Of a stretch of 64,000 nucleotides of DNA, positions 45,571 to 45,641 are shown in pieces. Each line of letters opens with the position of its first letter. Within the stretch, counting starts at the first letter, position 1. Position numbers and translations under genes: made by a program. The notes beneath the pieces are model-generated. The model ran no database searches, was not told the origin of the DNA, and saw only the letters and a list, made by a program, of their open reading frames with translations. Source of the DNA: Eledone cirrhosa (taxonomy: Eukaryota); contig OZ024762.1 of assembly GCA_964016885.1 (NCBI GenBank), positions 24,490,001 through 24,554,000 of the forward strand, read 5' to 3'.

Positions 45571-45641
45571 TATTTTATTATGCGCATTTCAAAAACAAAT
45601 ATCATCATGCAATAACATTTGTGTTTTCATCAGATAAAATA
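45571..45641 (-). ncRNA. Type I hammerhead ribozyme motif (best-preserved copy)
   Basis: Reverse complement TATTTTAT-CTGATGA-AAACACAAATGTTATTG ca TGATGATATTTGTTTTT-GAAA-TGCGCA-TA-ATAAAATA; perfect 8-bp stem I; palindromic ATGCGCAT stem III. Confidence 0.82.

What the first reader, a model, noticed from the sequence alone, without database searches (positions are those of the whole stretch)
45571..45641. Most intact hammerhead, antisense to RBFOX, sharing stem I with the 1.6-1.9 kb pair but with unrelated stem II
It has a perfect 8-bp stem I (UAUUUUAU/AUAAAAUA), an about 17-bp stem II, a palindromic stem III and an AUA triplet. The copies at 1591/1794 have the same UAUUUUAU-CUGAUGA start but a different stem II and III. 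Structure is therefore kept while sequence differs, as expected under selection for catalysis in the parent elements.
Basis: partly seen in the sequence, partly recalled or inferred. Interest (0 to 1): 0.7.

Follow-up and report, generated by a model that had tools for sequence, protein, structure and literature searches.

The report
Penelope retroelement end with hammerhead
The hammerhead-ribozyme motif is real, but it is one of about ten thousand near-identical ends of a young Penelope-like jumping gene that landed in a TA repeat inside an RBFOX intron; where those copies start and stop suggests the parent is likely copied from two RNA forms, an uncut transcript and a ribozyme-cut circle.

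Summary
Observation confirmed: a type I hammerhead lies at 45571-45641 (minus strand), antisense in an 18-kb RBFOX intron. It is not locus-specific. It sits in a ~170-nt solo pseudo-LTR of a young Hydra-clade Penelope-like element. At least 32 other places are 100% identical over 156 nt, the family has ~10,000 copies, and 42,901 related motifs occur genome-wide. An intact parent exists (794-aa RT plus GIY-YIG ORF between two pLTRs). The 1.6-1.9 kb pair belongs to a sister family. Its stem II is not unrelated: both have 3 bp, a C·Y mismatch, then a stem, with compensatory changes. Hydra elements with hammerheads are published, one from octopus, and this scan found such ends before on other DNA. 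What I add is end statistics. 94.5% of copies read across the cleavage site. About 60% start at one initiator-like base upstream of the ribozyme, whereas 93 of 97 ORF-linked 5' pLTRs continue past it. This fits solo ends copied from uncut transcripts and full-length copies from a ribozyme-cut circle (inferred, untested). New member of a known kind; interest 0.33.

The parts
45533..45701 (-). Solo pseudo-LTR (short form, pLTR positions 0 to ~168) of a young Hydra-clade Penelope-like element; the 3' end merges into (TA)n
   Evidence: 98-99% identical to both pLTRs of the intact copy L199
45571..45641 (-). Type I hammerhead motif, predicted cut between 45579 and 45578
45634..45641 (-). Stem I, 5' strand (pairs with 45571-45578)
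   Evidence: pair probabilities 0.85-0.99
45591..45626 (-). Stem II: 3 bp, C·U mismatch, 12 bp, GCAU loop; closes with A10.1-U11.1 instead of the usual G-C
45580..45587 (-). Palindrome AUGCGCAU, predicted 8-bp intermolecular stem III
   Evidence: -10.5 kcal/mol as dimer; probability ~0.001 as monomer; 167 of 181 loci self-complementary counting G·U
45699..45703 (-). Family-wide sharp 5' start at the A at 45701 (initiator-like TCA+1TAT in the parent; inferred transcription start); here preceded by a G that the parent lacks
45702..45715 (-). Junction filler: ATATAG plus a repeat of the element's first 8 nt (ATATGTTG)
   Evidence: an exact direct 8-nt duplication occurs at 138 genomic copies
45475..45532 (.). 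(TC)n(TA)n microsatellite target at the 3' end; a shorter TA run flanks the 5' end (~45716-45735)
   Evidence: TA-rich sequence follows the 3' end (short or long form) in all 30 loci
36974..55404 (+). RBFOX intron holding the insertion
1542..1889 (.). Head-to-head fold-back of two pLTRs of a sister, older Hydra-type family, with hammerheads at 1591-1651(-) and 1794-1854(+)
   Evidence: two family members (L044, L050) carry a Hydra-type endonuclease end 43-44% identical to P0001 about 1.1 kb upstream

Best explanation
The motif is the hammerhead in a solo pseudo-LTR of a young, high-copy Penelope-like retrotransposon with Hydra-clade features, inserted in a TA microsatellite in an RBFOX intron, where it is likely an inert passenger. 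Shown: the parent is pLTR, 79-nt 5' UTR, 794-aa RT + GIY-YIG ORF, ~0.9-1.1-kb 3' UTR, pLTR. Shown: copies end at two 3' sites (~168 and ~258) against (TA)n, mostly start at one base 123 nt upstream of the cut site, and read across the cut site. Inferred (about 0.5): transcription starts at that initiator-like base; the element's protein nicks (TA)n and starts reverse transcription at one of two internal sites in the 5' UTR. On the uncut linear transcript this copies only the pLTR, giving solo ends such as this one and head-to-head fold-backs. Inferred: when both pLTR hammerheads of one transcript pair through their palindromic stem III and cut, the 3.6-kb unit is ligated into a circle or joined by a template jump; copying it gives the 3'UTR-linked, more-than-unit and tandem copies. 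The window copy is antisense to RBFOX, has no partner hammerhead, and would not cut the RBFOX pre-mRNA.
For: 33 places 100% identical over 156 nt among 52 matches, 40 of 240 candidates scored. Family 25-mer at 9,958 sites; related motif at 42,901 sites, reversed control 0. 7 of 30 loci run upstream into a shared body. Intact ORF between two pLTRs in L199 with RWI, DKT, DDGL, CxCX5C, CxxC and CxH motifs as described for Hydra. First 100 copies by position: 3' ends 57 at 165-183, 41 at 257-260, 2 read on into the ORF; contigs of run X3 show loose ends at both sites and of X6 at the long one. 9,411 of 9,958 (94.5%) keep 4 nt across the cut; 1 of 100 starts at the cut. Only 4,672 of 11,538 keep 6 nt upstream of position 1. 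By contrast 93 of 97 ORF-linked 5' pLTRs keep the upstream TCA and 30 of 30 inspected are 3'UTR-linked; Fisher p 2e-31. A 5-unit head-to-tail array with neighbours 99.6-99.9% alike exists. G at -1 in 2,111 of 6,866 unlinked copies, and in 19 of 40 against 15 of 160 at -2 to -5. By eye, the sister family also starts sharply, at TCA+1CTAT. Two RT start sites, uncut RNA as substrate and a protein-binding region downstream of them are published for another PLE (PMC11167929).
Against: No cleavage, expression or circle was observed: only contigs were available, with trivial RNA cover. Pfam gave no significant hit for P0001, and no tree with published Hydra proteins was built. The 93/97 test uses 3 upstream letters and a 16-nt anchor, the 4,672/11,538 test 6 letters and a 21-nt anchor. 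Fold-back arms are counted twice, and 5 of the 97 are one array. Several -1 Gs are explained by microhomology with the inverted arm or by short re-copied pieces ending in G, so a cap origin is only suggested. The PAc study found no RNA-seq reads ending at the cut site and no need for the ribozyme in vitro. The A10.1-U11.1 closing pair departs from the conserved G-C (PMC4209133) and may weaken activity.
Confidence: 0.85

Rival explanations
1. Same element, but the hammerhead plays no part in copying. All insertions come from uncut linear RNA: solos from pLTR-initiated transcripts, longer copies from read-through of tandem arrays or from upstream host promoters.
For: PMC11167929: hammerhead mutants insert normally in vitro. 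A tandem array exists as a possible source. Read-across at the cut site cannot tell uncut from re-ligated RNA.
Against: Linear transcripts that start at a pLTR would give full-length copies beginning at position 0; at most 4 of 97 do and 0 of 30 inspected. Core, stems and palindromic stem III are kept across families.
Confidence: 0.35
2. The sharp 5' start is not an RNA end but a pause or snap-back site (ATAT palindrome, TA microhomology) where young RT complexes fall off.
For: 24 of the 40 copies first classed as starting at position 1 are in inverted junctions and 5 abut TA runs; palindromes at inverted pLTR junctions are known (PMC3846280).
Against: Seven other ATAT/TATA/CATA starts lie between -150 and 122 without such a peak. 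ORF-linked copies do truncate at scattered sites in the 5' pLTR/UTR (15 of 25) but not at position 0. Both families start at an initiator-like A.
Confidence: 0.2
3. A non-autonomous retrozyme or SINE-like mini-element that spreads as its own small circular RNA.
For: Most copies are ORF-less and ~170 or ~260 nt with fixed ends.
Against: The unit is exactly the parent's pLTR, and its long tail is the parent's 5' UTR. No tandem mini-repeats were seen among the 100 copies sampled; about 41 of 100 run on into the 3' UTR.
Confidence: 0.05
4. A host-selected antisense ribozyme that regulates RBFOX.
For: It lies in an RBFOX intron.
Against: Identical to at least 32 other loci. Such motifs occur about 14 times per Mb with equal strand counts. 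It is antisense and solo, and monomer stem III is not predicted to form.
Confidence: 0.02

Closest known systems
Hydra clade of C-terminal-endonuclease Penelope-like elements (Craig et al. 2021, PMC8557442), including Hydra-1_Obim of Octopus bimaculoides
   Same: Single RT + C-terminal GIY-YIG ORF; DKT, CxCX5C linker, CxxC and CxH motifs; no CCHH cysteine pair in the GIY-YIG core; (TA)n targets; hammerhead in the pLTR; partial tandems and inverted 5' copies.
   Different: RWI instead of RWK; unit 3.63-3.66 kb against generally <3 kb; tail ~90 nt against 30-40 nt. The listed Hydra hammerheads, Hydra-1_Obim included, have different sequences, stem II of 3-7 bp and stem III of 3-4 bp, against 3 bp + C·Y + up to 12 bp and an 8-nt palindrome here.
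Minimal and palindromic-stem-III hammerheads of metazoan PLEs (Cervera and de la Pena 2014, PMC4209133)
   Same: Type I, in pLTRs, long helix II, palindromic helix III predicted to work as a dimer, thousands of solo copies, opposite-strand pairs; circle model proposed there.
   Different: 8-bp stem I, A/G10.1-U11.1 instead of G-C, conserved C·Y mismatch at pair 10.4-11.4; 42,901 matches against the 2,000-9,000 per genome reported there.
PAc Poseidon element of Anolis (Frangieh et al. 2024, PMC11167929)
   Same: Two internal RT start sites that define the tail; AT-rich targets; uncut RNA used as template.
   Different: Different clade. Here the hammerhead lies ~215 nt upstream of the ATG, and the genomic ends point to a second, endless template for long copies.
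Penelope of Drosophila virilis (PMC2377424) and Adineta vaga PLEs (PMC3846280)
   Same: Transcript starts inside the upstream pLTR; initiator-like TCACT, solo pLTRs and palindromic inverted junctions are described.
   Different: Those papers state no mechanism for pLTR regeneration beyond tandem formation, or propose antisense self-priming and recombination; no end counts of this kind in the passages I read.

Membership tests
Type I hammerhead ribozyme | Conserved core CUGANGA...GAAA...UH with stems I and II | tested here: met
Type I hammerhead ribozyme | Stem III formed (monomer, or dimer through a palindrome) | tested here: inconclusive
   monomer probability ~0.001; dimer duplex -10.5 kcal/mol by computation only
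Type I hammerhead ribozyme | Covariation in stems | tested here: met
   181 loci, 4 clusters of at least 5 loci, 97% paired against 57-66% slid; few independent lineages
Type I hammerhead ribozyme | Match to an Rfam hammerhead model | tested here: not met
   no hammerhead family among 10 hits at E<=10; a library match, not a defining feature of the fold
Type I hammerhead ribozyme | Self-cleavage | not testable with these tools
   needs in vitro transcription
Penelope-like element (EN+) | Single ORF with RT and GIY-YIG endonuclease flanked by pLTRs | tested here: met
   L199, ORF 1846-4230, pLTRs at 1509 and 5136; motifs by inspection and alignment; Pfam silent
Penelope-like element (EN+) | Partial tandems, inverted 5' copies, optional tail | tested here: met
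Hydra clade | DKT, CxCX5C linker, CxxC and CxH motifs; no CCHH cysteine pair in the GIY-YIG core | tested here: met
   HSDKTNN, CNCPAKNKC, CNLC, CLH, LIYECKV..TYFG against the description
Hydra clade | RWK motif | tested here: inconclusive
   RWI in P0001; RWK or RWR in 9 of 11 homologues aligned
Hydra clade | Insertion into (TA)n and hammerhead in the pLTR | tested here: met
Hydra clade | Monophyly with published Hydra RTs | not tested
Non-LTR retrozyme | Non-coding tandem repeats of 170-400 nt with no protein-coding body (recalled definition) | tested here: not met
   the unit is the pLTR of a coding element; no tandem mini-units among 100 copies

The most novel reading that the evidence does not exclude
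The ~10,000 copies record that one Penelope-like element uses two RNA templates. Capped, uncut transcripts yield solo pLTRs and fold-backs. A 3.6-kb circle made by dimeric hammerhead cleavage and religation yields every ORF-bearing, more-than-unit copy. That would give the PLE hammerhead its missing job, regenerating the promoter-bearing partial tandem, and would reconcile the circle model with the in vitro finding that uncut RNA is the substrate. The RT may also re-copy the last 8 nt of the RNA 5' end repeatedly, as telomerase does with its template.
Probability: 0.35. Interest if true: 0.62.

Novelty: new member of a known kind. Interest (0 to 1): 0.33.

Why it matters
As a locus it matters little: it is one young transposon end among thousands, with no sign of a role in RBFOX. 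As a family it offers a young, high-copy system with an intact ORF in which the open question of what PLE hammerheads do (called unclear in PMC8557442, dispensable in vitro in PMC11167929) has a sharp test: a capped start at a named base and a 3.6-kb circle with a named junction. It also shows that tens of thousands of hammerhead motifs with a long, mismatched stem II occur in this likely octopod genome; Rfam models did not match the window copy.

Tried and rejected
Rfam on the whole window gave microsatellite-driven miRNA matches among the 150 of 333 rows shown, and nothing relevant on the motif. Folding z-scores were uninformative. Pfam did not recognise the parent protein or its fragments. 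A strict extension script over-called internal 5' ends because of subfamily differences and was set aside; plus inspection were used instead. Sequencing runs: only contigs; the two RNA runs held one 234-nt contig each, so no statement on expression, strand or RNA ends is possible. Whole-pLTR similarity between this family and the 1.6-1.9 kb family is marginal (score 90.5, shuffle mean 70.6, maximum 91.5), so their kinship rests on the hammerhead and the linked endonuclease, not the flanks. No homologue of the cuttlefish RBFOX cassette exon was found in this intron. Lunse et al. 2017 was not held; I know it only as cited in PMC6765202, and it or its supplements may already list such octopus variants. 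Not-in-print searches: 'hammerhead ribozyme + Penelope + octopus' gave only PMC8557442; 'hammerhead ribozymes + cephalopod' 0; circle/partial-tandem terms 0; 'solo pLTR + transcription start' 0; one search gave three papers, none with these counts in the passages read (one of the three not opened). Polymorphism of this insertion was not tested. No earlier scan note was returned for this place or sequence or for the start-site/circle wording.

Full report
OBSERVATION. The minus strand of 45571-45641 reads as a type I hammerhead: 8-bp stem I, CUGAUGA, stem II, GAAA, UGCGCA, UA, with the predicted cut between 45579 and 45578. Stem II is 3 bp, a C·U mismatch and 12 bp. My descriptor found three motifs in the window and none in 60 shuffles at stem I of at least 8 bp. 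The fold is no more stable than shuffles (z -0.74) and Rfam does not match it. RBFOX exons lie on the plus strand on both sides (36914-36973 and 55405-55554; 100% identical to octopus RBFOX), so the motif is antisense in an 18.4-kb intron. The host is likely an octopod.

WHAT IT IS. A 156-nt query found 33 places 100% identical, the window included, among 52 matches from 40 of 240 candidates. Shared sequence spans window 45701 to ~45533 and ends in (TA)n; many copies are head-to-head pairs, and 7 of 30 run upstream into a common body. The body encodes an RT-endonuclease protein. Locus L199 holds an intact copy: pLTR, 79-nt 5' UTR, 794-aa ORF, 3' UTR, pLTR. The protein has the Hydra-clade motifs listed by Craig et al. 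except RWI for RWK, and aligns at 34-41% with 11 of its 33 homologues; Pfam is silent. The window copy is the short solo pLTR. A family-specific 25-mer occurs 9,958 times, and a looser hammerhead pattern 42,901 times with control 0.

RELATION TO THE 1.6-1.9 kb PAIR. That pair is a fold-back (1542-1889) of an older family (91-97% to the full-length matches). Two of its 20 loci carry a Hydra-type endonuclease end upstream, and a third family has a Hydra-type ORF downstream of its hammerhead. Among 181 loci (95 distinct motifs, selected for the shared stem I), the four clusters with at least 5 loci share 3 bp, a C·Y mismatch (paired in 3% of loci) and a further stem. Changes are double-sided at several pairs, and 97% of cells pair against 57-66% when slid; three single-locus clusters were left out of the slide count. 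Stem III varies as a palindrome, AUGCGCAU to AUAUAUAU, and 167 of 181 are self-complementary counting G·U. These are few independent lineages, but the pattern supports selection on the fold in parent elements.

HOW IT LIKELY WORKS. Computed: stem III hardly forms in a monomer (~0.001) but gives an 8-bp duplex in a dimer, as described for metazoan PLE hammerheads (PMC4209133). In the first 100 copies by position, 3' ends fall at two sites (57 near 168-175, 41 at 257-260) and 2 read on into the ORF. This matches the two RT start sites shown for PAc (PMC11167929). For 5' ends, the script classed 34 as 3'UTR-linked, 40 as starting at position 1 and 26 as internal. By eye, 7 of the 40 and 1 of the 26 are 3'UTR-linked, leaving about 33 true starts, mostly in inversions; 1 of 100 starts at the cut site. 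Genome-wide, 94.5% read across the cut, while only 4,672 of 11,538 keep 6 nt upstream of position 1. ORF-linked 5' pLTRs behave differently: 93 of 97 keep the upstream letters, 30 of 30 inspected and 10 of 10 in an overlapping earlier set are preceded by 3' UTR, and one locus holds five head-to-tail units. The start base is the A of an initiator-like TCA in both families (an Inr-like TCACT is noted in rotifer pLTRs). It is often preceded by a G absent from the parent, which may be a copied cap but has other sources. Inference: solos are copied from the uncut pLTR-initiated transcript, and long copies from a template with no end at the start site or at the cut site. The simplest such template is the hammerhead-cut, re-ligated circle proposed in PMC4209133, or an equivalent end-to-end jump. 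The two counts use anchors of different length and include non-independent arms, and no RNA evidence was obtained. Read-through of long arrays or a pause site remain possible.

COMPARISON. It works like other PLE pLTR hammerheads. It meets the tested Hydra features except RWK; no tree was built. A Hydra element from Octopus bimaculoides with a different hammerhead is already listed. An O. vulgaris repeat annotation reports 31 recently active Penelope-like families and does not mention hammerheads in its main text. Earlier notes of this scan reached the same class on other DNA; I consulted them after forming my reading.

PAPERS SEEN. PMC8557442: passages, section 11, and supplement search plus part 2 of 59. 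PMC4209133 and PMC11167929: parts 1-2 of 4. PMC6765202, PMC2377424, PMC3846280, PMC13282606: passages. Lunse et al. 2017: nothing. Hammerhead numbering, the initiator consensus and the retrozyme definition are partly recalled.

VERDICT. Real motif, ordinary origin: a new member of a known kind, with no evidence of host function. Interest 0.33, carried by the end statistics, which make the role of PLE hammerheads testable.

Noticed in passing
window 45702-45715 and 138 genomic copies: The first 8 nt of the element (ATATGTTG) are re-copied once or more at the 5' junction, in some loci two or three times (L007, L181, L190). This could be telomerase-like realignment by the PLE RT or templated insertion by host repair.
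   Followed up: partly
L232-L234 (G000:C6:38,070,965-38,089,520): Head-to-tail array of five 3.66-kb units and six pLTRs, neighbours 99.6-99.9% alike, with an inverted partial copy upstream and a (TA)n end; longest ORFs 374-514 aa. A single multimeric insertion or later unequal crossover.
   Followed up: partly
window 17480 (-), 21342 (+) with inverted partner 21098 (-), 40642 (-): Further hammerhead cores of other PLE-like families; 17480 and 21342 have 4-bp stem I and complete cores, and 21.0-21.4 kb is a fold-back.
   Followed up: partly
window 45737-45882: Near-perfect ~146-nt AT-rich hairpin (-71 kcal/mol) directly beside the element, MITE-like.
   Followed up: no
hammerhead pair 10.4-11.4 in four families: A C·U or C·C mismatch is conserved in stem II while neighbouring pairs covary; a candidate tertiary contact with stem I or a protein-binding site.
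   Followed up: partly
P0001 residues ~585-650: Asparagine-rich insert between RT and the endonuclease linker, absent from 9 of 11 homologues aligned; N-rich inserts are also described in rotifer Penelope ORFs.
   Followed up: no
window 23264-60523 (+): Five RBFOX exons from the second half of the RRM onward; the earlier exons were not found in the window, so the 1.6-1.9 kb fold-back is likely intronic too.
   Followed up: partly
L054:8404-9540 (+): A different, canonical-type Penelope ORF fragment with a weak GIY-YIG hit near a family copy.
   Followed up: no
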